Positions 30,306 to 46,214 are shown, counted from the first letter of the stretch. The stretch: 64,000 nt of DNA from Bdellovibrionota bacterium FG-1 (GCA_051382295.1 JBBCAW010000053.1:16593-80592); one strand, 5' to 3'. Notes: a model not told the origin generated them from the sequence alone. A program made the numbers and translations.

Positions 30306-30611
30306 TTAATGAGAGTTCTTGTCTCCAGGGTTGGTGCCGGCATTGATTTCGTCAATAGTGGAAACACCATCACCGTCGGAATCGAGCGCTTCAATCGCCT
30401 TAAAATCAAATTTATCGCCTGCCTTAGTTTTTTGCAAATCGATCCCGTAGCCATTCAACTGACTTCCCGATGTATGACAAACCTTGCAATTCACTGAAAG
30501 TTTAGTCGCTGGATAAGCCGCCTTAAAAGCCGTCATCTGCTGAGGCTTGGCAAAGGACATCGAAGGCGCAAAAACAAAAACTAACGCCAAAACAGTAATT
30601 AAGTTTTTCAT
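30306..30611 (-). CDS. Small monoheme cytochrome c with DSDGDG Ca-binding-type motif
   Basis: Signal peptide (..SMSFA), CKVCH..LNGYG, LDSDGDGVSTIDEINAGTNPGD. Confidence 0.8.
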   Translation of the reverse strand: MKNLITVLALVFVFAPSMSFAKPQQMTAFKAAYPATKLSVNCKVCHTSGSQLNGYGIDLQKTKAGDKFDFKAIEALDSDGDGVSTIDEINAGTNPGDKNSH

Positions 30612-30805
30612 ATCATTTCTCACTTTCTTGATGAGGTCTTTAGCAAATAAGATTTCGCCGCACAATATGACATTAAATTGATTTTCATCCCTGGGAATTT
30701 TTGTCCCACCAGACGGAACCCATGAGCCAGTTAGTCCATTTTAACGCCAACGCTTCTTGAGTCAGACCTAGTCGCACTGCATGCCCCATGTTAATATGAA
30801 AGATC

Positions 30806-31528
30806 ATGCGGAAAATGAAAACTCACCTCCCCCGCCTTTTTAAACTTTCCGCCTATGCGGTCATTAGTTTTTGTGCACTGGTTCCACTGACCTTTATCGG
30901 GGTTTTCCAACAAACACGTCTCGCGCAAGACACCGTGAATACGTTGGCCCTCAACCTCGCAACACTTTCTAATCAAGCAAGACACGGTGAAATTTCGCCG
31001 GCAGTTGCGGTAACCTGGATTCGAAACCATGAGCTGGTCCTGTGGGCAAACTACCTTAAACAGAATCAAATAGTCGCCCACGCCGGATTTTCTCCGCGCT
31101 TGATCAACTCCACTCACACCCAAGATATTCAACTCGATCCAGATCGGTCCTTTCAGAAACAATTACCCAAACCCCATTTCCAACTCAATCCTCGGTCGGA
31201 ATACCGGTTCATCCTCCCCATTTCCTGGAACCCGCAGCAAGAAGAACGACTTGAACTCGGCGCATCCTACGGAACCCTGTTCTCCGCCGCCAAGGATGCC
31301 TTCGTTCTCTCATCGGCTCTTTTTACGGCGGCATTCATCTTTCTTTTTGGCACCGTCATATTTGTCGATGCTTATGTTTCCAGTTTTACCTTACGAGTGA
31401 TTCGCGCAATCCGAACCCATTCGTCACCCGCCGATTTTTCGAAGGACCTTGGAATTCCGCAGGACCTTTCCCCCACTTTCAGTTCACTCATGGAAACCCT
31501 GGAACATCGCACGGAGTGTGCCCCATGA
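30806..31528 (+). pseudogene. Two-TM periplasmic sensor module, C-terminally truncated (no output domain)
   Basis: TM-periplasmic-TM-HAMP-like layout ending where it collides with the opposite-strand cytochrome ORF. Confidence 0.5.
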
Positions 31529-32019
31529 CAATCGAAACACAACGGAGCATGCTTATCGCCCAGCATCGCTTTTCTAAAATGGATCGATTGCTCGAACTCA
31601 CTTGGAACATGGGGGGCGAATAAAAAGACCTTCGCGATGGTCTGGTCTTGGTGACAACGCATACAGGGCACATCCACGGGGTGAATCACGGCCGGGATCA
31701 GATCGGCTTTTGCGACATTCTGTGGATTATTGACAAAGTGGTTACTCTCGTGACAAGTGAGGCACACGGCTCCTTCGGGAAGGTTCTTCAATAACCCTGC
31801 TTGACCGTGAATACTGGCATTGAGATCTCGGAGCTGATCCACGTGACACCCAACACACTTGGGGGCTAATGTTCCGTGAATCGCAAGGTGAGGAAATCTG
31901 CCCAAAATGGCCTGATCAACCGCTTGCATCTCCACCGCGGTGGGTGCCGGGGCGGCCGTTACGAGGGTCGCCCCCAGACTCATGAACAAACAGAGACCCA
32001 TCATGATGCAAATTCTCAT
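31372..32019 (-). CDS. Multiheme cytochrome c (4 CxxCH), probably truncated
   Basis: Signal peptide; CVGCH, CLTCH, CMRCH, CFDCH. After HGAHSVR it reads antisense to the sensor gene. Confidence 0.75.
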   Translation of the reverse strand: MRICIMMGLCLFMSLGATLVTAAPAPTAVEMQAVDQAILGRFPHLAIHGTLAPKCVGCHVDQLRDLNASIHGQAGLLKNLPEGAVCLTCHESNHFVNNPQNVAKADLIPAVIHPVDVPCMRCHQDQTIAKVFLFAPHVPSEFEQSIHFRKAMLGDKHAPLCFDCHGAHSVRCSRVSMSELKVGERSCGIPRSFEKSAGDEWVRIARITRKVKLET

Positions 32020-32026
32020 ACCTACC

Positions 32027-32647
32027 TCAACGTTGGCGATGCATTGCAAGTTCTACTGTCGCTGATAATAGGCTTCCAGAGACGATTCCTGCAATCGCAA
32101 ACAAGAACCCCACCGCTAAAAATCCAGTGGCGGCCGCATAGGCATGACTGAGATCGAAGTCGAAGATTCCGCCCATGCTGATGACCAGTTGACCCGGAAA
32201 CAGATGCTCCACACGTTTGGTCAAAGAATGGATCGGGGTGTTTCCCTGATAAACAAACAGGGCCAAGGCCCCCACCGCTCCAATGAGCGCGCCGATATTG
32301 GTTTTCTGGCACGCTTCGAGTTTCAGATTTTTTCCGGTCATTACGGCAAGCACCCGGGAGACTGTTTCCTGAATGTGAAGTTGCCGGAGCGCCCAGCCCG
32401 CAAAATAACTGACTGAGAGTCCAAGAAGGATGCCCTGAAAAAATGTCAGGACGGTGGCTGCGCCAAGAATGGCCAATTTGACAGTCAGGGCAAGGACCGG
32501 GGTCTGAATCGCTTCAGAAAAAAGAGTAGCAGGAACCGCCGCCATGAACAGCGAGACGGGAAGCATAACAAAAGTCAGCAAGGTCCCTACGAAAAGTCCC
32601 ATACGATCTGTTCCATTCAATCCTTTGGTCAATCCTTCGGTTTTCAT
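32027..32647 (-). CDS. Hypothetical polytopic membrane protein
   Basis: CAGGAG RBS before ATG 32647; about 4 hydrophobic segments. Confidence 0.7.
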   Translation of the reverse strand: MKTEGLTKGLNGTDRMGLFVGTLLTFVMLPVSLFMAAVPATLFSEAIQTPVLALTVKLAILGAATVLTFFQGILLGLSVSYFAGWALRQLHIQETVSRVLAVMTGKNLKLEACQKTNIGALIGAVGALALFVYQGNTPIHSLTKRVEHLFPGQLVISMGGIFDFDLSHAYAAATGFLAVGFLFAIAGIVSGSLLSATVELAMHRQR

Positions 32648-32686
32648 AAAATTACTCCTGTTTGTTGTTGTCACACCTAGACATAA

Positions 32687-32703
32687 AGCAACCGGCGTGC
32701 CGC
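32687..32703 (-). promoter_or_regulatory. sigma54 -24/-12 promoter
   Basis: CGGCAC-GCCGG-TTGCT on minus strand, 40 bp upstream of ATG 32647. Confidence 0.7.
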
Positions 32704-32916
32704 AGTAATTTCACTTAAATTTCAATAAGTTATAACGTCTTCTTTCTTGTAAAGAGGTTTTTCCGCCAAAATCTAAGAAAAAAGAACCAAAGTGGGACTC
32801 AAGTGTCCCAGTTTAAGATCGCATCAATCAATAATTAATATTAATTTCGAAAAGTTACCTCAGATAATACCAGAATGCACAAAAAGGGCACCGCTGTCGC
32901 AGCAGCAAACCGCGTG

Positions 32917-33675
32917 TTAAGGGCCGGTTTCAACCATAAACTCAAGAAAATGACAGTTGCGACATCCGAAAGTCGTCTGGACTTGAGTATGTGCAAACTT
33001 CGCGGGCAAAGCATTATGGCATCGAACACAGGCCACATCGGTCGCACCAAAATTATGAGCGCGGTTAGCAATGCCGCCGTGGCAATCGATGCACATGATC
33101 GGTCTTGCTTGCCAGACGGTCTTATCCGCATCGGCACCGTGCCCCAACATAGAATCCTCAATCCACTTGCCCTTCAGAGCGGCGCCCAAATGCTGCTGCT
33201 GAGGAAAGGGGAGCTTCACCTCTTTTGAGAGATGGAGTTTATGAAGCCGGGTATTACTCACCTTAGGAATATCTTTGAGCGCATGAGAACTCAATGGACC
33301 CGCCACATCCGCATGCCCTGAATGACCAAAGTCCCAGTGACAGCCCTCACAGAGGTGCTTTTCGACGTGCGGCACATGTTTCATGTCTAAAGGAAATCTA
33401 GGCTTCTTTGTCACCAACGCTACGGCTTCTTCGAAATACTGAACCAAGGGTTGGTGATGACAATCATGGCAAGTGGTGATTTTTCCATGGATGCTCTTTT
33501 TCCAAGATACATTGGCATAATCATGGATATGGCACTTCGTGCAAAAACCCGAATCCACCCAAGTATACTGGAAAGCCTTATAGCCAGGATACGTTCCGAC
33601 TACGCCACCGATCACCAGAGCCGGGAGCATAAACACCAAGTAAGGTTTTGCGGCATTCAACAAGCGCTTTACCAT
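32917..33675 (-). CDS. Membrane-anchored NapC/NirT-like hexaheme cytochrome c
   Basis: N-terminal TM, FCTKCH...W..SIH...CHDCH (NapC-like), plus CEGCH, CIDCH, CVRCH, CRNCH. Confidence 0.8.
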   Translation of the reverse strand: MVKRLLNAAKPYLVFMLPALVIGGVVGTYPGYKAFQYTWVDSGFCTKCHIHDYANVSWKKSIHGKITTCHDCHHQPLVQYFEEAVALVTKKPRFPLDMKHVPHVEKHLCEGCHWDFGHSGHADVAGPLSSHALKDIPKVSNTRLHKLHLSKEVKLPFPQQQHLGAALKGKWIEDSMLGHGADADKTVWQARPIMCIDCHGGIANRAHNFGATDVACVRCHNALPAKFAHTQVQTTFGCRNCHFLEFMVETGP

Positions 33676-33827: not shown

Positions 33828-33832
33828 GACAT

Positions 33833-35950
33833 TCACTCCTTTTCCTTCGCTTTGCCTTTTTGGCCGCGCTTCGAGTGATAAGTTTCCACAAACTGCATGT
33901 TCGCGGATTCAGCCGTATGGCAGGCCGAGGTACAAACCGGAAGCAGGGACTGCAGATTGGGCCGCAGAAGCGACCTTTGGGTGGAAGGAGCATGAGGATC
34001 ATGACAAGTCGAACAGGTCAGCCATCCATCTGAAAGATGGATATTGGGCGGAAGTGGAAGTCGGGCCATTGCAAAAAGTTGATCAATCCTTTTGTCGTGA
34101 CTCTTTTTGACTCGATCCTGATGACAGCTGACACAGATCAGTGAAACACGTTTCTTGTCCTGATGTGGATCGTGGCAATTCAAACAAAAAGACGCGTCAT
34201 CAGCCCATTGCACTCTCTGACGAAGCTGAGGGCTTGCCTTGAGATGCTCATTTTTTTCGATCAAAAGAATACGGTCCTTGTGACAATTCAAGCACGAGCC
34301 CGCGGAATCCTTGGATTTATGACGACTAAAATGAGCGGCCTTTTCAGACCCATGAACGGAGTGACAAGACAAACAGGTCACCTGAACCTCATTTTTATCG
34401 AGCTTAGCAAAGCCAAACGGATGACTTTTGGGCTTGCGCGCTTGTCCGTGGCACGAAATGCACAAATCCGAAACTGTCTTGCGAAGCTGTCGCGGTTCGG
34501 CCGAATGCATCTGATGACATTGCGAGCAGGATTTGACCTGAATCTTAAATTTCTGCAACTTCGTGGATGAAAGACCGAGATGATTATGTTCGACCGATTC
34601 CTTGTCCTTGTGACAAGTCAGACATAACTCTTTAAAGGGCTTTCTCAACATGAAGGGAACTTGCTTGACGGTATGTTCTTCTCCAAATTGCCCAGTAACC
34701 ACACCTGAAAGCGATTGATGATGGTTCTGATGGCAGGTAAAGCAATCGATCTTATGTCCTTCCGCTAACTTCAGATCCACCGTGATTTTCACCTCGACCC
34801 CAACAGGATGGTGCTTTTTCTCCAATATGAATTTGTCCAGGCTAAATTTCTCAAGTCCGTCATGACAGTTCAAACAACGAACCATCGCATAGGTTTTTTG
34901 AGTATCCGGATTTCTAAAAAGGTCATTTTCGGCAAAAGAGGTTTTATCTAAGGCAATTAAATCAGGATTGTCTGCTCCTGCCGAAAGCGTCCCCATATTC
35001 ACTTTAAAAGCCAGAATTCGATTACCAAAATAATCCGCAACATAAAGCCGATCCTGCCAACTCGCGAGACCCAGCGGATAACCAAAACGCGCCGTCCCCG
35101 CATCGCTTCCGATCGAACCAATGTAATTACCGAGACGATCGTAGAAAAAAACCAGCTTTAATCCCACATCCGAAATCGCCACCCAACGGTCCGATACCAT
35201 CGCAATGGACTTAGCGAACATCAGGGTGCCGTTTCGGGTTCCCCAACGGCCCCATCGGTAGCCCGAATCCTTGCCGAAAAAAACCACATGAGAACGAAAA
35301 GGATCCAACAACATCAAACTTCCGTCTTCTAACGGCTCAAGACGTGAATACCGCCCCTGCGAAATCAAAAACCCTTCTTGCCAATCAGCAAAGGGGTTTT
35401 TGCTCAAATCCAAATCTTTAGGGGGGATCGATTGAGAAAATGGAATCGCTAAAGGAGTCCAATGTAGACAATCGGTACTTTTATAGGTCGAGTTTTGAAC
35501 GAGAAAAAAGGTATTTCTCAGAACTTCCAAATCTCTCACCAGGGCATCTTCAGGCAGAATCAGGCGCTCAGCCCCTTGCAAAGACTGATTGTTGCCGGGA
35601 ATCGCAACTCGAAAAAGCGAAAAAACAGACTTTTGAAGTTTTTCTGACCCCTCATACTTTTGGATCGTCGCAAGAAAAAAAGAGGACCGATTACAAGCGA
35701 GGGAGGTGATCAACTGCCCCGGCAGAATCGCCCCTAGGGACTGAGTCGAAAGAAGCTTGCCATCATTTGGATCTAACGCTCTCAACTCACCCAGCTCCAC
35801 GCTGTAGGTCCAAACACGATCGCCGCAGACTCGAACCAAAGTTGGCGCCGATATCTTGGCCTCAAATAATGGGGTTGCGAGCCGCTCCTGGGCTAATGCC
35901 GGGGGCGACAACAAAAACAGGGTAAAGATGAACGGGAAAAAACGCTTCAT
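33833..35950 (-). CDS. NHL/beta-propeller plus multiheme cytochrome c fusion (10 CxxCH + 1 CX3CH)
   Basis: Signal peptide; NHL repeats (WGRWGTRNGTLMFAKSIA, FGYPLGLA..RLYVADYFGNRI); 11 heme motifs in the C-terminal half. Confidence 0.85.
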   Translation of the reverse strand: MKRFFPFIFTLFLLSPPALAQERLATPLFEAKISAPTLVRVCGDRVWTYSVELGELRALDPNDGKLLSTQSLGAILPGQLITSLACNRSSFFLATIQKYEGSEKLQKSVFSLFRVAIPGNNQSLQGAERLILPEDALVRDLEVLRNTFFLVQNSTYKSTDCLHWTPLAIPFSQSIPPKDLDLSKNPFADWQEGFLISQGRYSRLEPLEDGSLMLLDPFRSHVVFFGKDSGYRWGRWGTRNGTLMFAKSIAMVSDRWVAISDVGLKLVFFYDRLGNYIGSIGSDAGTARFGYPLGLASWQDRLYVADYFGNRILAFKVNMGTLSAGADNPDLIALDKTSFAENDLFRNPDTQKTYAMVRCLNCHDGLEKFSLDKFILEKKHHPVGVEVKITVDLKLAEGHKIDCFTCHQNHHQSLSGVVTGQFGEEHTVKQVPFMLRKPFKELCLTCHKDKESVEHNHLGLSSTKLQKFKIQVKSCSQCHQMHSAEPRQLRKTVSDLCISCHGQARKPKSHPFGFAKLDKNEVQVTCLSCHSVHGSEKAAHFSRHKSKDSAGSCLNCHKDRILLIEKNEHLKASPQLRQRVQWADDASFCLNCHDPHQDKKRVSLICVSCHQDRVKKSHDKRIDQLFAMARLPLPPNIHLSDGWLTCSTCHDPHAPSTQRSLLRPNLQSLLPVCTSACHTAESANMQFVETYHSKRGQKGKAKEKE

Positions 35951-36036
35951 GTGGGGTTCACTTTTCAAAACATCAGCACCCTTTCTCGGAGAGCAGACAG
36001 CGTCTCTCAAAGAAAAGGTGCTGACTTTATCCTCAA

Positions 36037-37353
36037 TTACAACTTACGGCCGCCTTCGGCGGCCCATTTTTCAAGCATCTCGGTGGTGACGGATTTTGGA
36101 CGCTCCAAAGCGTAGCCCAAAGCACGATCCCACACGATATTGGTCAAAACACCAATCGCACGGCCCACACCAAAGAGCACGGTGTAGAAATCGTATTCAG
36201 TCAAGCCATAATGCCATTGAATCACGCCGGACTGCGCGTCCACGTTCGGAAATGGGTTTTTGGTTTTACCATGCTCGGTCAAAACCCCCGGAGCGACCTT
36301 GTAGACCATATTCACAAACTTAAACATCGTGTCATCAGGCAAGTGCTTCTGACAGAATTCCATCTGCGACGTATATCGCGGATCGGTCTTTCGCAGAACG
36401 GCATGACCATATCCAGGCACCACTTGTCCGGCCTTTAAGGTTTCCCACAAAAACGCTTTCATCTGCCCTTCGTTCGGGACCTTGCCATCCATTTTTTTCA
36501 TTACCCCTTGGATCCAACGCAAGACTTCTTGATTGGCCAAGCCATGAAGGGGTCCCGCCAGCGCGGCCATCCCTGCGGCAAAAGAGTGGTAACAGTCGGC
36601 AAGCGTGGAGGCGACCAGATGGGTGGCGTGCGCTGAGGCATTTCCGGATTCGTGATCGGAATGCAAAATAAAATACATGCGCGCGACATCATCATAGGGC
36701 TTTTTCATCCCCATCATGTGGGCGAAGTTACCACCCATATCCAGATTTTTATCGGGCGCGATCTGATTATCATTTTTGTATTTCAAGCGATAAATAAACG
36801 CGGCCAACTGAGGCAGACGTGCCATGAGATTGCAGGCATCTTCGTACATGGGATCCCAGTACTCATCCTTTTTCATGCCCTGCTCGTAGCGTTTGGCAAA
36901 AACGGATTCCCGCTCCATGGTCGTTACACCGGCCGCAAGCATCGCCATCGGATGTGAATCCCTGGGCATGGCACGAAGCACGTCAAATACATACTTAGGA
37001 ACCTCGCTCCGAGTACGGAAATCATTTACGACTCCAAGCGTCTGTTCCACGGTTGGAATCTCGCCCGTCATCAAAAAATACCAAAAGCCTTCAACGTAAG
37101 GGTATTCGGCGCCTGGAACCTTAGGAAGCGCCGCAAAGGTTTCCGGAATCGTTTTTCCACGGAAGCGAATGCCTTCTTGAGGATCGAGATAAGAAATATC
37201 CGTCACTAAGCAACGAACATCGCGCGCCCCACCGATACATTGCTCAATGGTAACTTTGTCAATCATGACCTCGCCGTGTTCTTTCATGAGTTTTTGAACG
37301 CGGGGGCGATGGGCTTTGATTTTTTCGTGGAGTGTTTCCTTCAGTGTCGCCAT
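36037..37353 (-). CDS. gltA: Citrate synthase, eukaryote-like/Geobacter type
   Basis: GGARDVRCLVTDISYLDPQEGIRFRG, HSDHESGN, LAGPLHGLANQE, PGYGHAVLRKTDPR, PNVDAQSG, ERPKS. Confidence 0.95.
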   Translation of the reverse strand: MATLKETLHEKIKAHRPRVQKLMKEHGEVMIDKVTIEQCIGGARDVRCLVTDISYLDPQEGIRFRGKTIPETFAALPKVPGAEYPYVEGFWYFLMTGEIPTVEQTLGVVNDFRTRSEVPKYVFDVLRAMPRDSHPMAMLAAGVTTMERESVFAKRYEQGMKKDEYWDPMYEDACNLMARLPQLAAFIYRLKYKNDNQIAPDKNLDMGGNFAHMMGMKKPYDDVARMYFILHSDHESGNASAHATHLVASTLADCYHSFAAGMAALAGPLHGLANQEVLRWIQGVMKKMDGKVPNEGQMKAFLWETLKAGQVVPGYGHAVLRKTDPRYTSQMEFCQKHLPDDTMFKFVNMVYKVAPGVLTEHGKTKNPFPNVDAQSGVIQWHYGLTEYDFYTVLFGVGRAIGVLTNIVWDRALGYALERPKSVTTEMLEKWAAEGGRKL

Positions 37354-37488
37354 GAACTTACTTTCCTTTCAATTTTTTAAATTCCAGTGCGCTTGAATCT
37401 AACTCGTTTTGAATCATGACAAAAGCATAAATACAGTCGATATTACACTTACCGTATCGCATGAGACAAAATGACCCAGATCAAAAGC

Positions 37489-38817
37489 TTAAACTGCGGC
37501 TTCCAGTTTTTTAAACGTGGCTTCAAACAAAGAAAGGGCATGATCCACCTCTTTACGGGAGATGTTCAACACGGGACGAAGCCGAACGCTGCGTTCGCCG
37601 CAGACCAACACCAAAAGGCCCAAATCCCAGGCCATTCTTCGGTAATCGTTGCGCTCTTTTTCAGTTGGGAGATCAAAGGCGATCAAAAGACCCCGCCCGC
37701 GAATATTGGTCATGCGCGGGAATTTTAAAGCCAACTTTTTGAGCGACTCCAAAATATAATCACCTTGAATTTGCGCATTTTCGAGAAGCTTTTCTTCTTC
37801 GATGATTTTCAAAAACTGATTTGAGCGAACCATATCAGTAAGGTTGCCACCAAACGTCGAGTTAATTCGACTCGAAACCTTAAAGACAGAATCCACATCA
37901 TCAATTCTTGCGCTGGCGGCAATCCCGCCGACCTGAACTTTTTTGCCAAAACACACGATGTCAGGTTTGACACCAAAATGCTCCCAGCACCAAAACTTGC
38001 CCGTCAGGCCTACTCCGGTTTGCACCTCGTCAAAAATCAACAAGGCTTCACGCTCATCCGCAATCTTGCGCAGCTCGGCTAAAAACTCACCCCTAAAATG
38101 ATTATCTCCGCCTTCAGATTGAATCGGCTCAATCAAGATGGCTGCGATATCATCTGGATTACGGTCAAAAGCTTGATGGATTTGGGCGAGAGCCTTTTTT
38201 TCTCGAGCCTCGACGTCCTTCAAGGCTGCAGCGTCCACGGGAAAATGCAGCATGGGATTGGTGATCCGAGGCCAAGTAAACTTTGGAAAATACATGGTTT
38301 TTTTGGGATCATGGGTATTTGTGACCGAAAGCGTATAGCCCGATCGCCCGTGAAAGGCCTGTTCGAAGTGAAGGATCTGATAGCCCTTTTCACCCTTCCC
38401 CGCGGCAAGATTTTTGCGAACCTTCCAGTCAAAAGCCGTTTTCATCGCGTTTTCAACGGCTAGCGCACCGCCTTCTACGAAGAAATAATGGGTAAAATGC
38501 CCGCGATTCGAAAGCCGTGCAAAGCGGTCCACAAATTCAGCATATTCTGGGGTATAGACGTCCGCCAAAACGGGTTTGACCTTGGCAATCCGGTCAAGGG
38601 TCCGGGTAAAATCAGGATCTTTCATTCGAGGATGATTAAAGCCGATCGGATTGCTGGCAAAAAAGCTGAAAAAATCGAAAAACTTTCGATCATGAGCTGC
38701 ATCATGAAGATAAGAACCCTCGCTTTTTTCGAAATCCACGACAATCGGAAAGCCATCCACCAGAATATGCTTTTTTAAGATGTCCATGGTGTTTGACGCC
38801 GTGTACTTCGTTTCCAT
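37489..38817 (-). CDS. lat: L-lysine 6-transaminase
   Basis: HILVDG, FFVEGGALAVENAMKTAFDWK, AFHGRSGYTLS.TNT, FPKF.WPRI, EGGDNHFR, FGKK.Q, SSRINSTFGGNL. Confidence 0.9.
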   Translation of the reverse strand: METKYTASNTMDILKKHILVDGFPIVVDFEKSEGSYLHDAAHDRKFFDFFSFFASNPIGFNHPRMKDPDFTRTLDRIAKVKPVLADVYTPEYAEFVDRFARLSNRGHFTHYFFVEGGALAVENAMKTAFDWKVRKNLAAGKGEKGYQILHFEQAFHGRSGYTLSVTNTHDPKKTMYFPKFTWPRITNPMLHFPVDAAALKDVEAREKKALAQIHQAFDRNPDDIAAILIEPIQSEGGDNHFRGEFLAELRKIADEREALLIFDEVQTGVGLTGKFWCWEHFGVKPDIVCFGKKVQVGGIAASARIDDVDSVFKVSSRINSTFGGNLTDMVRSNQFLKIIEEEKLLENAQIQGDYILESLKKLALKFPRMTNIRGRGLLIAFDLPTEKERNDYRRMAWDLGLLVLVCGERSVRLRPVLNISRKEVDHALSLFEATFKKLEAAV

Positions 38818-38914
38818 AGGGAACCTCTCTTTTTTTGACCGAAGTTAACCACTTCAGCCTTTATTCTGCAACGCCTGTCATTATAAGGTGACCACAATCA
38901 TATCGGGGGAAAAA

Positions 38915-40456
38915 ATGGAAATCAAAGGACTTCAAGACACTCTTCGCGCGCTCGAGATTCAAAACACGAACCCAGGGGTTTGCGACGGCGAAAGCTGGTT
39001 TGGCTCGGGTTCAGAGATTGAGGTTCGAAGCCCAATCAACGGCCAGGTCATTGCCCACGTCAAACAAGGCACTCCCGCCGATTATGAAAAAGTCATGGCC
39101 GCTTCGTTGCGCGCCTTCAAAACCTGGCGTGAAGTCCCCGCCCCCAAACGTGGAGAAGTCGTCCGTCAGCTCGGCGATGCGCTCCGCGCATTAAAAGAGC
39201 CGCTGGGCAGGCTCGTCTCGATTGAAATGGGCAAAATCTACCAAGAAGGTCTAGGCGAAGTTCAGGAAATGATCGACATCTGCGACATGGCGTGCGGCCA
39301 ATCGCGCATGCTTCATGGAGTTCAAACCCATAGCGAAAGACCTCGCCATCGAATGTACGAGCAATGGCATCCGATTGGGGTAGTCGGAATTATTTCAGCC
39401 TTTAACTTTCCGGTCGCAGTCTGGAGTTGGAATGCGACGATCGCCCTGATTGCTGGCGACACCTGTGTTTGGAAACCCGCCAGCACCACCCCTCTGACCG
39501 CGATTGCTTGTCAAAAAATCATCCAAAAAGTGCTTCGAAACAATGGAGTGGATCCGGCCGTAGCGACACTCATTACAGGCAAGGGAAGCGAAGTCGGTGA
39601 ACTCTTTAACCAAGATCACCGTATGCCGCTGGTGAGCTATACGGGTTCGACTCGTCTGGGCAAGCACATCGGCAAAGTAGTCGGCGAGCGCCTTGGTCGC
39701 ACCATTCTCGAACTCGGGGGCAACAACGCGATCATCATCACCAAGAACGCCGACTTGGCCCTCGCCACGGGCAGTGTGTTCTTTGGTGCGATCGGTACGG
39801 CCGGCCAACGCTGCACGAGCACCCGCCGCGTGATTGTTGAAGAGTCGGTTTACAATGATTTTCGAGATCGCCTCAACCGCGCCTACGATCGCATCACGAT
39901 TGGAAGCTCACTGGACGAAAAGAACCTCATGGGCCCCCTGGCTGAAAAATCCTCGGTCGAAGCCTTTTTTACCTCGATCGAACAGGTCAAAAAACAAGGC
40001 GGAACTTTCTTGCGCCAAGGCGAACGTCTGAGTGGCCCGGGTTACGAAGGCGGCTGCTATGTGCGGCCAGCGATCGCCGAGGTCAACGGCAATCTTGCGA
40101 TTGTCCAAGAAGAAACCTTCGCTCCGCTTTTGTATCTGATGAAATACAGTGGCGCGCTCGAAAACGCGATTGCACTTCAGAATGAAGTCCCTCAGGGATT
40201 GAGTTCCGCGATCTTCACCAATGATATGCGCGAATCTGAGCTCTTTTTGAGCAGCGTGGGAAGCGACTGTGGCATTGCCAACGTGAATGTGGGCACGAGC
40301 GGCGCTGAAATCGGCCTCGCCTTTGGGGGCGAAAAGGAAACCGGCGGCGGCCGCGAAAGCGGTTCAGACGCCTGGAAAACTTATATGCGCCGTCAGACCA
40401 ACACCGTCAATTGGAGTGGCAAGACGATTTTAGCGCAGGGAGTGAAGTTCGAGTAA
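38915..40456 (+). CDS. pcd: ALDH7-family piperideine-6-carboxylate/alpha-aminoadipate semialdehyde dehydrogenase
   Basis: EGLGEVQEMIDICD, ISAFNFPVAVWSWN, LELGGNNA, GTAGQRCT, SDCGIANVN, GGGRESGSDAWK.YMRRQT. Divergent from lat. Confidence 0.88.
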   Translation: MEIKGLQDTLRALEIQNTNPGVCDGESWFGSGSEIEVRSPINGQVIAHVKQGTPADYEKVMAASLRAFKTWREVPAPKRGEVVRQLGDALRALKEPLGRLVSIEMGKIYQEGLGEVQEMIDICDMACGQSRMLHGVQTHSERPRHRMYEQWHPIGVVGIISAFNFPVAVWSWNATIALIAGDTCVWKPASTTPLTAIACQKIIQKVLRNNGVDPAVATLITGKGSEVGELFNQDHRMPLVSYTGSTRLGKHIGKVVGERLGRTILELGGNNAIIITKNADLALATGSVFFGAIGTAGQRCTSTRRVIVEESVYNDFRDRLNRAYDRITIGSSLDEKNLMGPLAEKSSVEAFFTSIEQVKKQGGTFLRQGERLSGPGYEGGCYVRPAIAEVNGNLAIVQEETFAPLLYLMKYSGALENAIALQNEVPQGLSSAIFTNDMRESELFLSSVGSDCGIANVNVGTSGAEIGLAFGGEKETGGGRESGSDAWKTYMRRQTNTVNWSGKTILAQGVKFE

Positions 40457-40458
40457 CC

Positions 40459-42045
40459 TCACCGCTTCGCGGGCGACTGATGCGGCCACGCCCCAGGTTC
40501 ACCCTTGCCGCCAGCCTTGAATGTTTCGTCGATTCGCGACAATGCGTTCTCAACCCAGGTATTGCCATGACACTGCGTACAGGCGTCAAACATGGCGTCG
40601 CGACGAGCATCCGCGCCTTCTCTTTGCGCAGGCTTTTTGCCCGACTGCCAAGAAAGTCGGGAAGTCACATCATGCGTGTGCTTATTCGAAGGCGTCGACG
40701 CCATATGACAGGTGACACAACCCGGAGTTTTGACTAAATCGCGATCACTAGGATCGCGATAAACGGCACCGTGAGCTGAATGCTTCCACGCATCCGCGCT
40801 TCCATCGCTGTCGTGACAAGACATACAGACTTCAGGCCGTCTCGCCGACGCCGCTGAAAAATTATGTCGCGCATGACAGATGGTGCAGGAACCCACACCC
40901 CCGTCGGGATAAGTGCGACCGATTCCGGGCAAGGGCCAGGTTTTAGGATCGGGCTTGCCGCCCTCGACCTTGATCTCGCGCCCCGCGATGGCCATTCCGT
41001 GCGAAGTTTTAGCCATCTCAGCGACGGCGTCTTTATGACACTTTTCGCAGACTTTCGGGCTGACGATCATCGAAATTTGCGCGTCGTGATGACCGTAACC
41101 ACCGGGCGTGCCCTTAGCGACACCATGACAGGTGAGGCAATTCACGCCAATCTGCGCATGTAAAGACTCTTGCCAGCCTTTAACGATCTCGGGTGAACCC
41201 TTGGTATGGCACTCAACACACTCTTGGGCATCTTTCGCGATGCCGGGAGGAGCACTGAAATTAAAGGTCCCCTCTCTTAAAAGCTTGGCCCAGCGGCTCC
41301 CGTGCGGATTGTGACAGCCGGAACACTCACTGTGGAGCAGGCTTTTATGATTTGGAACCTCTCCCGGCCGGTTGATGGTGATATTTTTAACCAGATGCCC
41401 ATCAGCGGCCTTTTGTTCCTTATCATGACACTTCAAGCAAAGCTCCGGCTGCTGAAGTTTGAGCAAATGCTCATGCTCCGAACTATGTTGATCATGGCAG
41501 CCCAGGCAGGAATCCTTTTCCATGACGACTTTGTAATGAGAAGACTTGTCGACAAGCTCATTTTGAATGTCTTGATGACAACGTAAGCAACAATCTGGAG
41601 CGCGTTTGTCGTTCAATAAAGCCTTATGGGATGACGAATGCGGATTATGGCAGGCGACGCAAGAACGATCCGTAATGGGCTTATGCACGGATTGCCGATG
41701 AGCGACGGCGCTATCAAGCTTATCTTTGACGTCATCGTGACAGACCAAACAGACTTCATTGATGCCCCTATTCGACAAGGCAATCACGCGGGGATGTTTA
41801 GGATGCCCGGTCACCGCCCGCCCCTGAGCACCCGTTTTGTGACAGACCTCGCAGCCCTTGGATCCCACCGCTGACCTTACCGGACCGTGAATGACCTTTT
41901 GTTTTCGAAAGTCCGAATGGCACTGAGAAGTTGAACAAGTGATGCCTTCCGCGAAAGCCACTTGCGGGATAGGGGAGTTCAAGAACAAACCCACTAAGCC
42001 ACCCAAAAAAATCCTCGAACTCAAATTTTTATGCCGATGAATCAT
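40459..42045 (-). CDS. 15-heme cytochrome c: paired-CxxCH N-domain fused to an HAO-family heme scaffold
   Basis: Signal peptide; 1 CX4CH + 14 CxxCH. The C-half has VSPK.C..CH, WP..GIGR..PDG..GSC..CH.RH.FS and THDV..RLSW. Confidence 0.85.
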   Translation of the reverse strand: MIHRHKNLSSRIFLGGLVGLFLNSPIPQVAFAEGITCSTSQCHSDFRKQKVIHGPVRSAVGSKGCEVCHKTGAQGRAVTGHPKHPRVIALSNRGINEVCLVCHDDVKDKLDSAVAHRQSVHKPITDRSCVACHNPHSSSHKALLNDKRAPDCCLRCHQDIQNELVDKSSHYKVVMEKDSCLGCHDQHSSEHEHLLKLQQPELCLKCHDKEQKAADGHLVKNITINRPGEVPNHKSLLHSECSGCHNPHGSRWAKLLREGTFNFSAPPGIAKDAQECVECHTKGSPEIVKGWQESLHAQIGVNCLTCHGVAKGTPGGYGHHDAQISMIVSPKVCEKCHKDAVAEMAKTSHGMAIAGREIKVEGGKPDPKTWPLPGIGRTYPDGGVGSCTICHARHNFSAASARRPEVCMSCHDSDGSADAWKHSAHGAVYRDPSDRDLVKTPGCVTCHMASTPSNKHTHDVTSRLSWQSGKKPAQREGADARRDAMFDACTQCHGNTWVENALSRIDETFKAGGKGEPGAWPHQSPAKR

Positions 42046-42142
42046 AAAGACCCAACCCCGTTTAATGATCAAGTTAACAAAGCCTGTCTCAATAATTGTA
42101 CCCGAGAAGACCGACCATGCACCGCAAATCTTCCATCAAAAC

Positions 42143-42180
42143 AAAAAGAAAAAGGCCGTGATTCCAGCGGAACCACGGCC
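42143..42180 (-). terminator. Rho-independent terminator after the mtrB-like gene
   Basis: GGCCGTGGTTCC-GCT-GGAATCACGGCC followed by TTTTTCTTTTT on minus strand. Confidence 0.85.
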
Positions 42181-42212
42181 TCGTCCTACATTATTTTTAA
42201 GCGCCTAAAAAC

Positions 42213-44399
42213 TTACAGCCGATAGGATGCCGACAGATAGTACATCTGAGCGGTGTAATTAAGGTCAGCCCCCGCGCCAGTCAGCAAGCCAGGGCTGGCT
42301 GCCGTACTGATCGCTGGCCGGTCCGTGTAACCATCCCAAGCATCATCAGAATAAGTGAGCTGATCAAACCCAAAGCCCACCGTCGCACTCAACTTCGTGT
42401 TCACGCGGTAAGTGCCGTGAATATCCGCAAGGGAATGCCGTGCACCCTCTAGGTTGTTCAGATCCCAGAGAGGGACACCGTTGGCAGGCTGGCCCGCATT
42501 AAAGGCCATGCTACCACTCGATACGTTTTGGCTCCATGAAGCAACCAAATCAAGCTGCTCCAACACCGGCACTACGACATTAAAACCATAACCCCAAGTG
42601 AGGTTATTGGTGTTTTCATCGAAGTTAAACGCATAGTTGCCAGCCGTCGTGCTGTTGGTTGGATCGACCGGAGGAGTACTTGGATCCTTCGGAGTAATCG
42701 ATCCACTTATGTAACGACGAGTGGTATTATAGAGGGTCCCTTCGGCGTCAGCAAACGCATTAAAACGAATTTTCTTGATAGTGTAACCGACGTCGAAGAA
42801 CACTTCGTTGGTTTGGTCCCATTTTCGTCCAAGAGTAGTGGCAGTGTACTTATTGCTCCGCCAGCCATAATCCACTCCAAAATCAAGATCAGGCACCAAA
42901 TCACTGAAGCTCAGTCCCGTCTCCAACTTCCACATGGTTTTGTCAGCCACATCAAAGGGACGGGCATAAGCACCGAAAGGAACATCTGGAGCCAAAGCTC
43001 CACCTTCGAAATCGGAGGCGCGAGCCAAATAGTCCATTTTGGCTTTGAAACCCAGCCAATCAAGAGTGTTGTTCGTCACCTTCGCGAAATAATGGTTGTC
43101 ATTCGTCGTCAACGCATCAGCGCGGTCACGATGCACCAGAAGGTGATTATATCCGCCCCGAAGTTTCGTACTGAAAGGCAGACGATAGCCTGCTTCTAAT
43201 CCTGCATCCGCCTTACGGTAACTAAAGGTCTCGGTTTGATACCACGTTGCCGTCGACGCCCCTGCCGCAGTCACAACAGTTTTGTTGTAATTGAAGGTGT
43301 CCGAGTCATTGCGCTTGTCGAGATAATCAAAAAACAAGCGCGTATCGAGATCGGAGATGGGTCTCGAAGTGAGACTCGTATCAAACGAGCTGTAGCCGAT
43401 CTTTCCATTAAAGGAATTGCCTGCGGCACTCCAGGTGGTTACACCAGAGGTAGCATAGGAAAGAGGCTGTACTTGCGGATCAATGGTATCCGAAAGCCAG
43501 GCCATCCCACCGCGCAAACCGAAACTCGAATTGAGAGGTAGCTCGCCGATGGCAGCCTGTAATCCGACACGGTTATAGATACTCGTCGGAGCAATGGTAA
43601 CAACGTCAGCCCCATTATTAGCGACAGTAGCCGAGGTCGCAATCACAGGATCCATGAAGCTCATATACTGATTATCCGTACTGAAGCTACTCAAATCATA
43701 CCGAAGGGACACTGCGATATTGTCCTGACGGAAGGCAAGATCAGCATACACCATCGTGGTTTTTGCATCCACGGGCGCAGGCAACTCGAACCCTTGGCCT
43801 TGTGCGACACCGATCGGACGCAAACCGGTGCGGGACTCTTGATTCACCCCAAAATCCAAAAAGAAGGGACTCAGCATATTCACTGAGAAATCGCCCCCGA
43901 ACTTTTTGCGTGTAATCGTGTAATCAAACCCATTGGTCCAACCACCCAACGTGCGCCAAGGCTCACTGCCTGCGGTGGTGTCATAGGTCAGATTATTTGT
44001 TCCAACCCCAGCATAGAAGGTCGAAGCATTAAACGACAAATTATGAATAATCTGATCAAAATAAAGTTTGTATTTGAAGGCGTTGTATTTACCTCCATCC
44101 ACAACGTACTTTTGATCTTTTCGAGCGACATCACTCAGCAAGAGACCCGTGTAATACCCGTCTCCCACCGCGCGAACATCCCCATTGAGTACTGGACCCG
44201 TGGTCCAATCCCGATACTCATTGAATTTGGCGCTTTGATGGCTGTTATTGACCCAGATAAAACCGAGATCAGCGCCTCCCGTCAAATCAAAAGACCCTAA
44301 CTTAAATCCTTGGTCTTCTGCGATAGCCGCTGCTGAGAGAAAAACACACCCCAACACGACACTCCAGTAACTGACCTTAATGGCTTTTTGTAATTTCAT
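42213..44399 (-). CDS. mtrB: MtrB/PioB-family outer-membrane beta-barrel
   Basis: Signal peptide, SAKFNEYRD, ELPAPVD..T, about 730 aa of aromatic beta-strands ending YYLSASYRL; directly follows a decaheme gene. Confidence 0.88.
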   Translation of the reverse strand: MKLQKAIKVSYWSVVLGCVFLSAAAIAEDQGFKLGSFDLTGGADLGFIWVNNSHQSAKFNEYRDWTTGPVLNGDVRAVGDGYYTGLLLSDVARKDQKYVVDGGKYNAFKYKLYFDQIIHNLSFNASTFYAGVGTNNLTYDTTAGSEPWRTLGGWTNGFDYTITRKKFGGDFSVNMLSPFFLDFGVNQESRTGLRPIGVAQGQGFELPAPVDAKTTMVYADLAFRQDNIAVSLRYDLSSFSTDNQYMSFMDPVIATSATVANNGADVVTIAPTSIYNRVGLQAAIGELPLNSSFGLRGGMAWLSDTIDPQVQPLSYATSGVTTWSAAGNSFNGKIGYSSFDTSLTSRPISDLDTRLFFDYLDKRNDSDTFNYNKTVVTAAGASTATWYQTETFSYRKADAGLEAGYRLPFSTKLRGGYNHLLVHRDRADALTTNDNHYFAKVTNNTLDWLGFKAKMDYLARASDFEGGALAPDVPFGAYARPFDVADKTMWKLETGLSFSDLVPDLDFGVDYGWRSNKYTATTLGRKWDQTNEVFFDVGYTIKKIRFNAFADAEGTLYNTTRRYISGSITPKDPSTPPVDPTNSTTAGNYAFNFDENTNNLTWGYGFNVVVPVLEQLDLVASWSQNVSSGSMAFNAGQPANGVPLWDLNNLEGARHSLADIHGTYRVNTKLSATVGFGFDQLTYSDDAWDGYTDRPAISTAASPGLLTGAGADLNYTAQMYYLSASYRL

Positions 44400-44417
44400 G
44401 TTTGTTTCCTCATTCAC

Positions 44418-45353
44418 TTAGCGGCCAAACACGGGGCCAAGCGAAGTAATCGTATTAGATCCATGGATATTGCCATGGCAATTCAAACAGCTACGGCCCC
44501 AAAGCCGTGGACTAGACTTCCATATCGCATTTGCAGTGGGACCGCCAAATCCGGCATGACCATCAAATGGGTTGGTTGGGTGACCTTTCGCAGTTGCATG
44601 ACAATCTTGACAGAGGCTAGGAGCCCTGCGAACCAAGAGCTTTTCATGCTGACTGCCGTGAGACTTATGGCAGTTCATGCAATTTTCTTCCACTGGGGGG
44701 TGTTCAAAAATGAAAGGTCCACGCTTGTCGGCATGGCACTTATAGCAAAGCTGATTGATGTTATCGGCCTTGAGATTACCGTGGCCCAGCGTTCCATGAG
44801 GATTGTGGCAATCAGCGCAGGTGACCTTACCTTCGATGATCGGATGATGTGAGAATTTTTTGACGTCCGACTGAACATCCTTATGACAAGCAAAGCAGGT
44901 TTCTGCCTTAGGCTTGATCGAGGCCTGTCCATCGTGCATCTTGTGACAGTTCGCGCACGAAACATCGTTGCGACTATGAATTCCTTGCTTCCAATACATC
45001 AAGGATCCCGTCTGAGTGGAGTGACAGGTCAAGCATTGCTTGGCCAGCATCTGGGCATCCTGCTTGGTTCCTTTATTGAAGCTGATAATCGAACTCGCTT
45101 CACGATCCTTCATGTGCTTATCGCCAGGACCATGACAGGTCTCGCAGCTAAAGGACCCTTCTTTGGTTTCCCATGCTTTTGAGTGGGGATTGCCAACGAA
45201 AAAGCTGTTTACCGCTTTCTCATGGCACTCCTTACAGCGATTAACGGAGCCTTTGTCAACGCCTGCGACGCTGACGCCCCCTCCTAACCATCCTATTGAA
45301 CTGGCAAGTAATGTTGCCAGAATCAGCCTTCTAACGTGTTGTGTTTTTTTCAT
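44418..45353 (-). CDS. mtrA: MtrA/DmsE-family periplasmic decaheme cytochrome c
   Basis: 10 CxxCH; CETCHGPG..H, SHHPI.EGKV.C.DCHNPHG, CHADKRGPFIFEHPPVEENC, C.NCH..IHGSN. Confidence 0.92.
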   Translation of the reverse strand: MKKTQHVRRLILATLLASSIGWLGGGVSVAGVDKGSVNRCKECHEKAVNSFFVGNPHSKAWETKEGSFSCETCHGPGDKHMKDREASSIISFNKGTKQDAQMLAKQCLTCHSTQTGSLMYWKQGIHSRNDVSCANCHKMHDGQASIKPKAETCFACHKDVQSDVKKFSHHPIIEGKVTCADCHNPHGTLGHGNLKADNINQLCYKCHADKRGPFIFEHPPVEENCMNCHKSHGSQHEKLLVRRAPSLCQDCHATAKGHPTNPFDGHAGFGGPTANAIWKSSPRLWGRSCLNCHGNIHGSNTITSLGPVFGR

Positions 45354-45771
45354 AAAATGTCGGTTTCTCCGGGTAAAAAGCCGAAAACTCTGCTTTCTAA
45401 ATTCACGTTTCCAGAGGTTTAACTTTAGAAACGTTCAATCATTTAAAAATCCTAACTATTGATATCACGATAAGCCGGTTGGCCTTTTTCGCAACAGCAA
45501 AGACGCTCTGACATTAATTTTTTTTTATTCTCCTTTTTTTGGAGAACAAAAAGCGACAGAACAACCCAACTTTTAACGAGCGTGGGACATTTTTTCCAAT
45601 ACATATTTCAGATGCACGTTTAACAGGCAAGGTATTGACACCAAGCAATACTGTTTAAACGCTGAAAAATACAAAACCAACCTCCACCGGGTCAGTGGAA
45701 TTATTTTGGAATGGTTATTGATAGTAATGCTCGCAGCTTTCCATTTTTTGTTTATGATAGAAAAAGTCCCG

Positions 45772-45787
45772 TGGAGTTCATTTTGCA
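45772..45787 (+). promoter_or_regulatory. Possible sigma54 promoter of the monoheme cytochrome
   Basis: TGGAGT-TCATT-TTGCA (GG-N10-GC, degenerate -24). Confidence 0.3.
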
Positions 45788-45848
45788 CACTTCAAGGGAT
45801 TGCATTTCACTATTACAATTACATTCCCCTTAAGGAGGACTTGAAATC

Positions 45849-46214
45849 ATGAAGAGAAGTTTGTTACTCGCGTTTACAGGTATCATCGTCGGAAGCTGGC
45901 TCAGCCACGCTGCCCATGCCGAGTTTAAGCCCGCTGACTTCTACGCCGAAAAGTGCGCTAAATGTCACGGCAAGGAAGGCAAAGGGGATGGACGCTCCGC
46001 GAAGAAGCTCAACAAAACCCCTACTGACTTTGCTGATGGCAAGGCCTTTACCGAAAAGAAGGGTCTCGACATGAGCCCCGAAGACCGCATGATTAAGGCA
46101 ATCAAAGAGGGCGGTCCCGCTGTCAAGCAGGGCAAGGAAATGGATAAGTTTGACGATCTTAAGCCCGAAGAAGTAAAAGCTCTCGTCGAATACCTGAAGA
46201 CTTTTAAAAAGTAA
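45849..46214 (+). CDS. Periplasmic class I monoheme cytochrome c
   Basis: AAGGAGG RBS, signal peptide AHA, CAKCHG.EGKGDG, distal Met, ALVEYLKTF. Confidence 0.92.
   Translation: MKRSLLLAFTGIIVGSWLSHAAHAEFKPADFYAEKCAKCHGKEGKGDGRSAKKLNKTPTDFADGKAFTEKKGLDMSPEDRMIKAIKEGGPAVKQGKEMDKFDDLKPEEVKALVEYLKTFKK

What the first reader, a model, noticed from the sequence alone, without database searches (positions are those of the whole stretch)
30306..46214. Complete-looking extracellular electron transfer locus (48 heme motifs) in a Bdellovibrionota-like genome
Seen: seven c-type cytochromes (1+4+6+11+15+10+1 motifs), an MtrB-type barrel and accessory membrane proteins within 16 kb. Together they could span every layer: quinol-proximal NapC-like protein, periplasmic carriers and an outer-membrane conduit. 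Known: CymA-MtrAB(C) and MtoAB-MtoD-CymA perform EET in Shewanella and Sideroxydans, while cultured Bdellovibrionota are known mainly as aerobic predators. Inference: an undescribed EET architecture in this lineage, used for mineral/humic respiration or possibly electron exchange with other cells.
Basis: partly seen in the sequence, partly recalled or inferred. Interest (0 to 1): 0.85.

Follow-up and report, generated by a model that had tools for sequence, protein, structure and literature searches.

The report
MtrAB conduit with disarmed-enzyme heme wire
Two separately inherited sets of heme-protein genes sit side by side in a probably magnetic Bdellovibrionota bacterium: one is a known kind of outer-membrane electron pore already reported for this group, here paired with a 15-heme protein whose second half is a nitrogen-cycle enzyme fold lacking its catalytic heme, so it likely works only as a wire.

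Summary
The seven cytochromes and 48 motifs are real (46 CxxCH plus two variants), but they are not one locus. Citrate synthase and two lysine-catabolism genes split the 16 kb into two modules that were never found together at 13 mtrAB and 7 NHL-cytochrome loci of relatives. Right module: monoheme, MtrA, MtrB, 15-heme protein, no MtrC; the same four genes occur in one other genome of the family. Left module: an NHL-propeller 11-heme and a membrane-anchored hexaheme, elsewhere part of a different porin-cytochrome operon. MtrAB in Bdellovibrionota class UBA1018, read as iron reduction, was published in 2026 (PMC13200544), so the headline is not new. The new part is the 15-heme protein: an 8-heme wire fused to an HAO/IhOCC fold (Z 20.2) that lacks catalytic heme 4 and the C-terminal helices. 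Twenty standalone relatives share the deletion; two close ones lie in a Rieske/cytochrome b operon. It likely bridges the periplasm to MtrA, parallel to archaeal MmcA. Direction and partners are untested. This scan noted a similar heme-4-less protein before on other DNA (e1-5049014).

The parts
45849..46214 (+). Class I monoheme cytochrome c with signal peptide, divergent from mtrA; part of the right module
   Evidence: PF00034 over cut-off; best PDB match is Kustc0457, partner of a reducing HAO (E 5e-10); a homologue lies at the same place in G018; 77% paralogue on contig C41
44418..45353 (-). MtrA/DmsE-family periplasmic decaheme
   Evidence: 10 CxxCH; TIGR03508 246.5 vs 192.2; 6R2Q_A E 3.9e-55
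42213..44417 (-). MtrB/PioB-family outer-membrane barrel, directly after mtrA; no Cys in the mature chain
   Evidence: PF11854 203.8 vs 23; TIGR03509 155.4, under 240.05; Cys count and C-terminal barrel-type end
42152..42182 (-). 14-pair hairpin with T-run between mtrB and the 15-heme gene (terminator-like); not present in the two G018 copies
41230..42072 (-). 15-heme protein, N-half: Sec-type signal peptide without lipobox, then 8 hemes (CX4CH + 7 CxxCH) in doubled-CxxCH repeats, MtrA-like wire
   Evidence: about 40% identical to the same half in G018
40459..41229 (-). 15-heme protein, C-half: HAO/IhOCC fold with 7 hemes; lacks the heme-4 segment (about 28 aa) and most of the C-terminal helices
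   Evidence: PDB sequence hits all HAO family; model pLDDT 88; 4QO5 Z 20.2, rmsd 2.1, 242 aligned; alignments and motif spacing
36037..40456 (.). Unrelated spacer: citrate synthase (36037-37353 -), L-lysine 6-transaminase (37489-38817 -), piperideine-6-carboxylate dehydrogenase (38888-40456 +)
   Evidence: NF007128, TIGR03251, NF050084 over cut-off; absent from all 20 related loci
33833..36010 (-). NHL-type beta-propeller (about residues 45-340) fused to an 11-heme domain; signal peptide, no lipobox; left module
   Evidence: model pLDDT 82 and Foldseek NHL hits; 53 clusters at E<=1e-30; 7 of 74 other family genomes
32917..33675 (-). Membrane-anchored hexaheme with NrfH/NapC-like N-terminus; always directly after the NHL gene
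   Evidence: PF03264 23.7 vs 24.1; NrfH 2J7A_C E 4.6e-05; adjacent at 7 of 7 NHL loci
32027..32674 (-). 215-aa membrane protein (at least 3 hydrophobic segments), no family, no homologue at related loci
31372..32049 (-). 4-heme ORF like the c-domain of cytochrome c/b561 fusions; homology stops at residue 180, tail overlaps a + strand ORF; likely a truncated gene
30806..31528 (+). 240-aa two-helix membrane ORF without family match, overlapping the 4-heme ORF by 157 nt
30306..30665 (-). Small secreted monoheme (weak GEGP-type match); 73% paralogue lies in the C38 porin-cytochrome cluster
   Evidence: a homologue lies by the NHL operon in 1 of 7 loci

Best explanation
The stretch holds two separately inherited cytochrome modules, and the right one (monoheme, MtrA, MtrB, 15-heme protein; no MtrC) likely forms an outer-membrane conduit in which the 15-heme protein is predicted to act as a non-catalytic periplasmic wire that would carry electrons from a quinol-oxidising complex encoded elsewhere to MtrA and on to soluble or chelated Fe(III) or humics under anoxia. 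Shown: gene content, the MtrA/MtrB identity, no MtrC, the HAO fold and the loss of the heme-4 motif and C-terminal helices. Inferred: bis-His ligation of the seven remaining hemes, periplasmic location, contact with MtrA, direction of flow, and the quinol-side donor (candidates: the left-module hexaheme, the NrfD/DsrP-type module on C66, the alternative-complex-III-like operon on C3). The left module (NHL 11-heme plus anchored hexaheme) is a displaced part of a second porin-cytochrome operon whose barrel, 7-heme and 2-heme genes lie on contig C38; it likely forms a membrane-anchored quinol-to-periplasm branch and could feed either conduit.
For: Two modules: 0 of 13 other mtrAB loci carry the NHL or hexaheme gene and 0 of 7 other NHL loci carry mtrA/mtrB; 6 of those 7 NHL loci start with a 410-430-aa barrel-like gene and 7-, 2- and 4-heme genes, three of which have homologues on C38 (HMM E 7e-17, 8e-38, 2e-13). 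Right cassette conserved in G018 in two copies. Non-catalytic: heme 4 is the 5-coordinate catalytic heme of HAOs (PMC8042395 passages); heme 3 to heme 5 spacing is 54-55 aa in all 22 full-length 7-heme domains against 81-82 in the octahemes printed, and the tail after the last heme is 24-66 aa against 136-188; seven further His are invariant, enough for distal ligands; the 16 seven-heme rows tested form one clade with heme-4 columns excluded (100). Wire role: the standalone form is the last gene of a monoheme-Rieske-cytochrome b operon in both genomes where it was found; MmcA is a tested precedent for loss of the catalytic heme giving a conduit (10.1101/2023.04.20.537704 passages). Shared physiology: 7 of 10 MtrB genomes of the family carry the NHL protein against 1 of 65 without MtrB (kin are not independent). 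Outward flow is the published reading for relatives from anoxic ferruginous sediment (PMC13200544).
Against: 11 of 13 other mtrAB loci have no 15-heme gene, so MtrAB does not need it. A strong terminator-like hairpin separates mtrB from the 15-heme gene here, though not in G018. G000 has no Rieske or cytochrome b match (97.7% complete), so the partner seen for the standalone form is missing. The two Rieske-operon genomes are 93% identical in this protein, one independent observation. Without MtrC and with a cbb3 oxidase, inward flow is as possible by gene content; MtoA/PioA do not separate from MtrA by function in trees (PMC8805035 passage). Loss of the Asp-His pocket is not diagnostic: 63 of 97 octahemes also lack it. 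No expression data.
Confidence: 0.55

Rival explanations
1. Same parts, opposite direction: an MtoAB/PioAB-like uptake conduit. Fe(II) or another outside donor reduces MtrA; the 15-heme protein and the monoheme pass electrons to the cbb3 oxidase or, by reverse flow, to the quinone pool, possibly also setting the Fe(II)/Fe(III) ratio for magnetite.
For: No MtrC over cut-off in 5 of 5 genomes searched; adjacent monoheme as in mto clusters (PMC8805035, PMC13390432); cbb3 oxidase present; mamA-Q-B-P-E-O-M-like cluster on C18; both genomes with the fusion are among the 4 of 75 with MamA.
Against: 7 of 10 MtrB genomes in the family have no MamA match; the monoheme did not match MtoD among PDB hits at E<=0.001; relatives were found in the anoxic zone (PMC13200544).
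Confidence: 0.25
2. One reading: the whole 16 kb is one co-regulated pathway in which the hexaheme is the dedicated CymA equivalent for this MtrAB.
For: Physical proximity in this genome; strong co-occurrence of the two modules at genome level (7 of 10 vs 1 of 65); NrfH-like anchored N-terminus.
Against: 4.4 kb of unrelated genes and three strand changes; never linked at 20 related loci, including G018 that has both modules; the hexaheme is under all NapC/NrfH cut-offs and has six hemes; two left-block ORFs look like debris.
Confidence: 0.1
3. The 15-heme protein is an electron store or a carrier for some other periplasmic route (for example to the NO reductase-like enzyme on C66) and only happens to lie after mtrB; MtrAB uses other carriers.
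For: Terminator-like hairpin and promoter-like site between mtrB and the gene; 25 multiheme ORFs with 168 motifs offer other carriers; most mtrAB loci lack it.
Against: Position after mtrB is kept at about 47% identity in both G018 copies with only 45-61 nt between the genes, and the fusion was found nowhere else in 127 genomes of the class.
Confidence: 0.1

Closest known systems
mtrAB operon of magnetotactic Bdellovibrionota FG-1/FG-2, class UBA1018 (PMC13200544; abstract, sections 19-20 and passages read; supplement not readable)
   Same: MtrA plus MtrB, no MtrC, a third gene whose N-terminal region resembles MtrA, cbb3 oxidase, magnetosome genes, same phylum.
   Different: The paper does not describe an HAO-derived domain, a monoheme or the NHL/hexaheme pair in the text read. 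It calls the third gene 'upstream'; here it follows mtrB. Whether it is an orthologue of the 15-heme protein stays open, as the sequences are in the unreadable supplement.
Shewanella MtrCAB with CymA (PDB 6R2Q; PMC8805035 passages)
   Same: Decaheme in an MtrB barrel; MtrA matches 6R2Q_A at E 3.9e-55.
   Different: No MtrC/OmcA; no tetraheme CymA in the cassette; a 15-heme protein follows mtrB.
Sideroxydans MtoAB with MtoD/PmcA/ImoA (PMC13390432 abstract; 10.1101/2022.01.10.475773 passage)
   Same: MtrAB homologues without MtrC and with an adjacent monoheme.
   Different: Monoheme is divergent and closest to Kustc0457 in the PDB; no NapC-type tetraheme in the cassette; host is not shown to oxidise iron.
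HAO family, closest IhOCC (PDB 4QO5) and epsilon-Hao-type octahemes (PMC8042395, PMC9250108, PMC5317091 passages)
   Same: Fold (Z 20.2, rmsd 2.1 over 242 residues), order and spacing of hemes 1-3 and 5-8; some relatives sit by Rieske/cytochrome b genes.
   Different: Catalytic heme 4 and its segment deleted, C-terminal oligomer helices mostly gone, fused behind an 8-heme wire.
MmcA of Methanosarcina (10.1101/2023.04.20.537704 passages)
   Same: Heptaheme conduit derived from an octaheme enzyme by loss of the catalytic heme.
   Different: MmcA derives from OTR (heme 2 lost) and works with Rnf in archaea; this one derives from the HAO/IhOCC clade (heme 4 lost), so an independent event.
NrfH/NapC/CymA quinol dehydrogenases (PDB 2J7A)
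   Same: N-terminal membrane anchor and first two heme motifs.
   Different: Six hemes, CxxCHxH in place of CxxCHxM, no match beyond residue ~75, fixed partner is an NHL-propeller 11-heme.

Membership tests
MtrCAB (Shewanella type) | Periplasmic decaheme MtrA | tested here: met
   TIGR03508 over cut-off; 6R2Q_A E 3.9e-55
MtrCAB (Shewanella type) | MtrB barrel gene next to mtrA | tested here: met
   PF11854 over cut-off, adjacent; TIGR03509 is under its cut-off
MtrCAB (Shewanella type) | Extracellular decaheme MtrC/OmcA in the cluster | tested here: not met
   TIGR03507 best 19.5 bits vs 209.3 in G000; no lipobox in the window's cytochromes
MtrCAB (Shewanella type) | Reduction of extracellular Fe(III)/Mn(IV) | not testable with these tools
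   needs bench work
MtoAB/PioAB uptake conduits | MtrAB homologues without MtrC | tested here: met
MtoAB/PioAB uptake conduits | Adjacent MtoD/PmcA-type monoheme | tested here: inconclusive
   a monoheme is adjacent, but its 3 PDB hits are Kuenenia cytochromes
MtoAB/PioAB uptake conduits | NapC-type tetraheme (ImoA/CymA) or MtoC in the cassette | tested here: not met
   the gene after mtrB is the 15-heme protein; the hexaheme lies 6.8 kb beyond it in another module
MtoAB/PioAB uptake conduits | Fe(II) oxidation | not testable with these tools
   needs bench work
HAO/IhOCC octaheme enzymes | HAO fold | tested here: met
   predicted model vs 4QO5 Z 20.2, 6M0P and 6H5L Z 13.9; the alignment used held octaheme relatives
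HAO/IhOCC octaheme enzymes | Eight hemes including 5-coordinate catalytic heme 4 | tested here: not met
   seven motifs; heme-4 segment absent
HAO/IhOCC octaheme enzymes | Three C-terminal oligomer-forming helices | tested here: not met
   35 aa after the last heme vs 136-188; one helix in the model
HAO/IhOCC octaheme enzymes | Nitrite/hydroxylamine turnover | not testable with these tools
   needs bench work
NapC/NrfH/CymA quinol dehydrogenases | N-terminal membrane anchor | tested here: met
   hydrophobic segment 8-26
NapC/NrfH/CymA quinol dehydrogenases | Tetraheme domain matched over its length | tested here: not met
   six motifs; PF03264 positions 8-73 of 174 only, 23.7 vs 24.1; TIGR03153 32 vs 134.2
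NapC/NrfH/CymA quinol dehydrogenases | Heme I CxxCHxM (NrfH; absent in CymA) | tested here: not met
   CxxCHxH invariant in 8 of 8 rows; feature
NapC/NrfH/CymA quinol dehydrogenases | Conserved quinol-site Lys and high-spin heme I | not tested
   the match to NrfH ends before the Lys
Bdellovibrionota host | Marker-gene placement | tested here: met
   genomes of the same phylum code group with a named Pseudobdellovibrionaceae RecA (98); the window's order is a clade of its own (98) whose deeper place is unresolved; class UBA1018 is inferred, not shown

The most novel reading that the evidence does not exclude
An unrecognised family of HAO-fold heptahemes lost the catalytic heme once, became the electron-output subunit of Rieske/cytochrome b complexes in Myxococcota-type bacteria, and in magnetotactic Bdellovibrionota was grafted behind an 8-heme chain and attached to MtrAB, where one 15-heme protein spans the periplasm in place of the small shuttles of Shewanella: a bacterial parallel to MmcA, and a handle on how magnetotactic predators use iron redox.
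Probability: 0.4. Interest if true: 0.7.

Novelty: new variant of a known kind. Interest (0 to 1): 0.5.

Why it matters
It corrects the picture of one all-in-one locus and narrows the novelty to a protein that can be made and tested. If the 7-heme domain is a pure wire, it is a second, independent case of an octaheme nitrogen/sulfur enzyme turned into a conduit by deleting its active-site heme, and some database entries named 'hydroxylamine dehydrogenase' (5 of the hits in this group) would be misannotated. The four-gene cassette is small enough to test in Shewanella whether MtrAB without MtrC in Bdellovibrionota moves electrons out or in, which the 2026 paper left open.

Tried and rejected
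Genome-collection scan with MtrB alone found no relative. RecA scan covered only 1 of 64 parts of the collection, so named references are sparse, and the careful tree did not finish; the quick tree was used. Metagenome scan with the 7-heme alignment returned 32 loci, none with the 7-heme form. The standalone form was rare in genomes: 1 of 251, 2 of 201, 1 of 351. Complex prediction of the 7-heme domain with the monoheme gave no answer. No sequencing run was listed. The cluster-member look-up could not be made, so lineages of most standalone relatives are unknown; one is labelled Myxococcaceae. Atlas search of the 215-aa membrane protein gave only leads under 0.9. Promoter-like sites were fewer than in shuffles (10 vs 15.2). 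No frameshifted continuation of the 4-heme ORF was seen in the other frames. No NrfA match in G000. Rejected: 15-heme as MtrC substitute (no lipobox, no MtrC match); 15-heme as nitrite reductase (no heme 4); contig chimerism; a strict link of MtrAB to magnetotaxis (7 of 10 MtrB genomes lack MamA). Literature: no paper describing a heme-4-less HAO fold or the NHL/hexaheme pair turned up in searches (open-access library only; most were seen as listings).


Full report
Observation. The seven cytochrome ORFs are at the stated places with 1, 4, 6, 11, 15, 10 and 1 motifs; 46 are CxxCH, one is CX3CH and one CX4CH, and shuffled proteins give 0.34 on average. 44418-45353 is an MtrA/DmsE decaheme (TIGR03508 246.5 vs 192.2; PDB 6R2Q_A E 3.9e-55) and 42213-44417 an MtrB-family barrel (PF11854 203.8 vs 23; TIGR03509 155.4, under 240.05). 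Between the cytochrome blocks lie citrate synthase, lysine 6-transaminase and piperideine-6-carboxylate dehydrogenase. GC and tetranucleotide profiles are slightly atypical but inside the genome's range.

Host. The genome has 4.44 Mb, 97.7% complete, 5.0% contaminated. In a quick RecA tree of 72 rows (chosen from 109 recovered: 38 best named loci, 5 added as outgroups, 29 handle genomes), genomes with the same phylum code group with a named Pseudobdellovibrionaceae sequence (98), and the window's order forms its own clade (98) with unresolved deeper position. Bdellovibrionota is therefore likely; class UBA1018 is my inference. Contig C18 carries a contiguous mamA, Q, B, P, E/O, M-like run, every match under its NCBIfam cut-off, with one magnetochrome domain over the Pfam cut-off. 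The genome has 25 multiheme ORFs with 168 motifs, ResB and CcsA, a cbb3 oxidase over cut-off, an alternative-complex-III-like operon (name recalled from gene order; Qrc-family matches under cut-off), an NrfD/DsrP-type module, and no match to Rieske, cytochrome b, NrfA or MtrC families.

Two modules. MtrB occurs in 10 of 75 genomes of the family including this one and, over the cut-off, in 1 of 261 sampled phylum genomes outside the family. At 13 other mtrAB loci (10 genomes; 5-20 kb each, three under 7 kb) no NHL or hexaheme orthologue was found; at 7 other NHL loci (16-18 kb) no mtrA or mtrB orthologue was found; the three spacer genes were at none of the 20. The NHL 11-heme gene is followed by the hexaheme gene at 7 of 7 loci, and at 6 of 7 the pair ends an operon that begins with a 410-430-aa barrel-like gene and 7-, 2- and 4-heme genes. 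The right block (monoheme, mtrA, mtrB, 15-heme) recurs in G018, in two copies, the monoheme being seen in one. At genome level the modules do co-occur: 7 of 10 MtrB genomes have the NHL protein against 1 of 65 others; kin are not independent. The 4-heme ORF matches the c-domain of a 517-aa cytochrome c/cytochrome b fusion of G013 up to residue 180 and then runs antisense into another ORF, so it is likely truncated.

The 15-heme protein. After a signal peptide without lipobox come eight hemes in doubled-CxxCH repeats with weak similarity to MtrA (E about 1e-14) and then a domain whose only PDB sequence hits are 8 HAO-family chains. Its model (pLDDT 88, from an alignment of 22 seven-heme and 45 octaheme rows) matches IhOCC 4QO5 at Z 20.2, rmsd 2.1 over 242 residues. 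It lacks the fourth HAO motif. [quoted passage not shown] Among the 120 listed hits of a profile search (258 in all), 23 lack heme 4 (this protein, one other fusion, 20 standalone 296-333-aa proteins with an N-terminal hydrophobic segment, one fragment) and 97 keep it; heme 3-5 spacing is 54-55 against 81-82 and the tail 24-66 against 136-188 residues in the rows printed. The Asp-His pocket is absent from all 23, but also from 63 of the 97 octahemes, so it does not discriminate. Seven non-motif His are invariant and one nearly so, enough for seven bis-His hemes (inferred). Sixteen seven-heme rows form one clade against 54 octahemes with heme-4 columns dropped (100; three loci skipped by the script). 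The fusion was found in 2 of 127 genomes of the class, both among the 4 of 75 family genomes with MamA.

What the standalone form does. In both genomes where it was found it ends a monoheme-Rieske-cytochrome b operon; these two are 93% identical, so this is one observation. Octaheme relatives lie by cytochrome b genes in 3 of 7 Myxococcota genomes with short flanks and related multihemes at 3 of 32 metagenome loci; such pairings are in print for Caldithrix and Kuenenia (PMC5317091, PMC12954380, passages). The window's monoheme is 30% identical to the one in that operon (pairwise E 2e-16) and its best PDB hit is Kustc0457, the cytochrome bound to a reducing HAO; this is a lead only. MmcA shows that deleting the catalytic heme of an octaheme enzyme can give a working conduit (10.1101/2023.04.20.537704, passages).

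Mechanism. Most likely (0.55) a quinol-oxidising complex encoded elsewhere reduces the 15-heme protein, directly or through the monoheme, which reduces MtrA in MtrB, and MtrA reduces soluble or chelated Fe(III) or humics outside. Gene content, fold and deletion are shown; location, ligation, partners and direction are inferred. Against: 11 of 13 other loci do without the protein, a terminator-like hairpin precedes its gene here, and the Rieske/cytochrome b partner is not found in this genome. Inward flow to cbb3 (0.25) fits the gene content equally; the one-pathway model (0.1) and a bystander role (0.1) fit less well.

Prior work and novelty. PMC13200544 (abstract, sections 19 and 20, passages; its supplement could not be read and bears on orthology of the third gene) reports mtrAB without mtrC plus a gene with an MtrA-like N-terminus in two magnetotactic UBA1018 genomes and proposes Fe(III) reduction. 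PMC8805035 (passages) describes MtrAB as a modular core with lineage-specific added cytochromes. Also seen: PMC13390432 (abstract), 10.1101/2022.01.10.475773, PMC11495043, 10.1101/2020.08.06.239558, PMC11492766, PMC12758564 (passages) and 10.1101/2025.05.29.656830 (part 1 of 4). No description of a heme-4-less HAO fold or of the NHL/hexaheme pair was found in searches. Verdict: a new variant of a known kind; interest 0.5.

Noticed in passing
G000:C18:9095-19423 (L226): Contiguous mamA, mamQ, mamB, magnetochrome-PDZ, mamE/O-like, mamM-like genes; all under NCBIfam cut-offs. MamA-like matches in 4 of 75 family genomes.
   Followed up: partly
G000:C38:18968-28237 (L021): Barrel-like gene with 9-, 7-, 2- and 11-heme cytochromes, resB, ccsA and a paralogue of the 30306 monoheme; homologous to the head of the NHL operon of relatives.
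   Followed up: partly
L194, L196, L197, L198 (G010, G006, G254, G003): Large multiheme genes (12-30 motifs) converge on the NHL/hexaheme operon; the operon lies next to a purF-like gene in G010, G350, G006 and G254.
   Followed up: no
G000:C66:28702-34649 (L023, L229): Tetraheme, NrfD/DsrP-type membrane protein (over the DsrP cut-off), tetraheme, 4Fe-4S protein, then a 751-aa heme-copper-family protein, probably an NO reductase (name recalled).
   Followed up: partly
G000:C59:15983-17593, C115:7085-8668, C139:362-1651: Further 20-, 14- (lipoprotein) and 13-heme cytochromes.
   Followed up: no
window 36037-37353: Citrate synthase of the eukaryote-like type (PRK09569 over cut-off; TIGR01793 577 vs 620), the kind known from Geobacteraceae (recalled).
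   Followed up: no
window 28485-30164: 559-aa secreted protein with no Pfam or NCBIfam match and no homologue in the genome or fetched loci.
   Followed up: no
window 46309-55110: Archaeal-type glycogen debranching enzyme followed by further glycogen-metabolism-like genes, one of 1406 aa.
   Followed up: no
proteins P0328-P0408: A large octaheme subgroup keeps heme 4 but reads GPDSP-like in place of GPDHP, so lacks the pocket His; several are named from sulfur-oxidising Gammaproteobacteria.
   Followed up: no
L203 (G013:C3): Full octaheme HAO-like gene, 7-heme cytochrome c/b fusion, 12-heme anchored and 20-heme genes side by side in a family genome without MamA.
   Followed up: no
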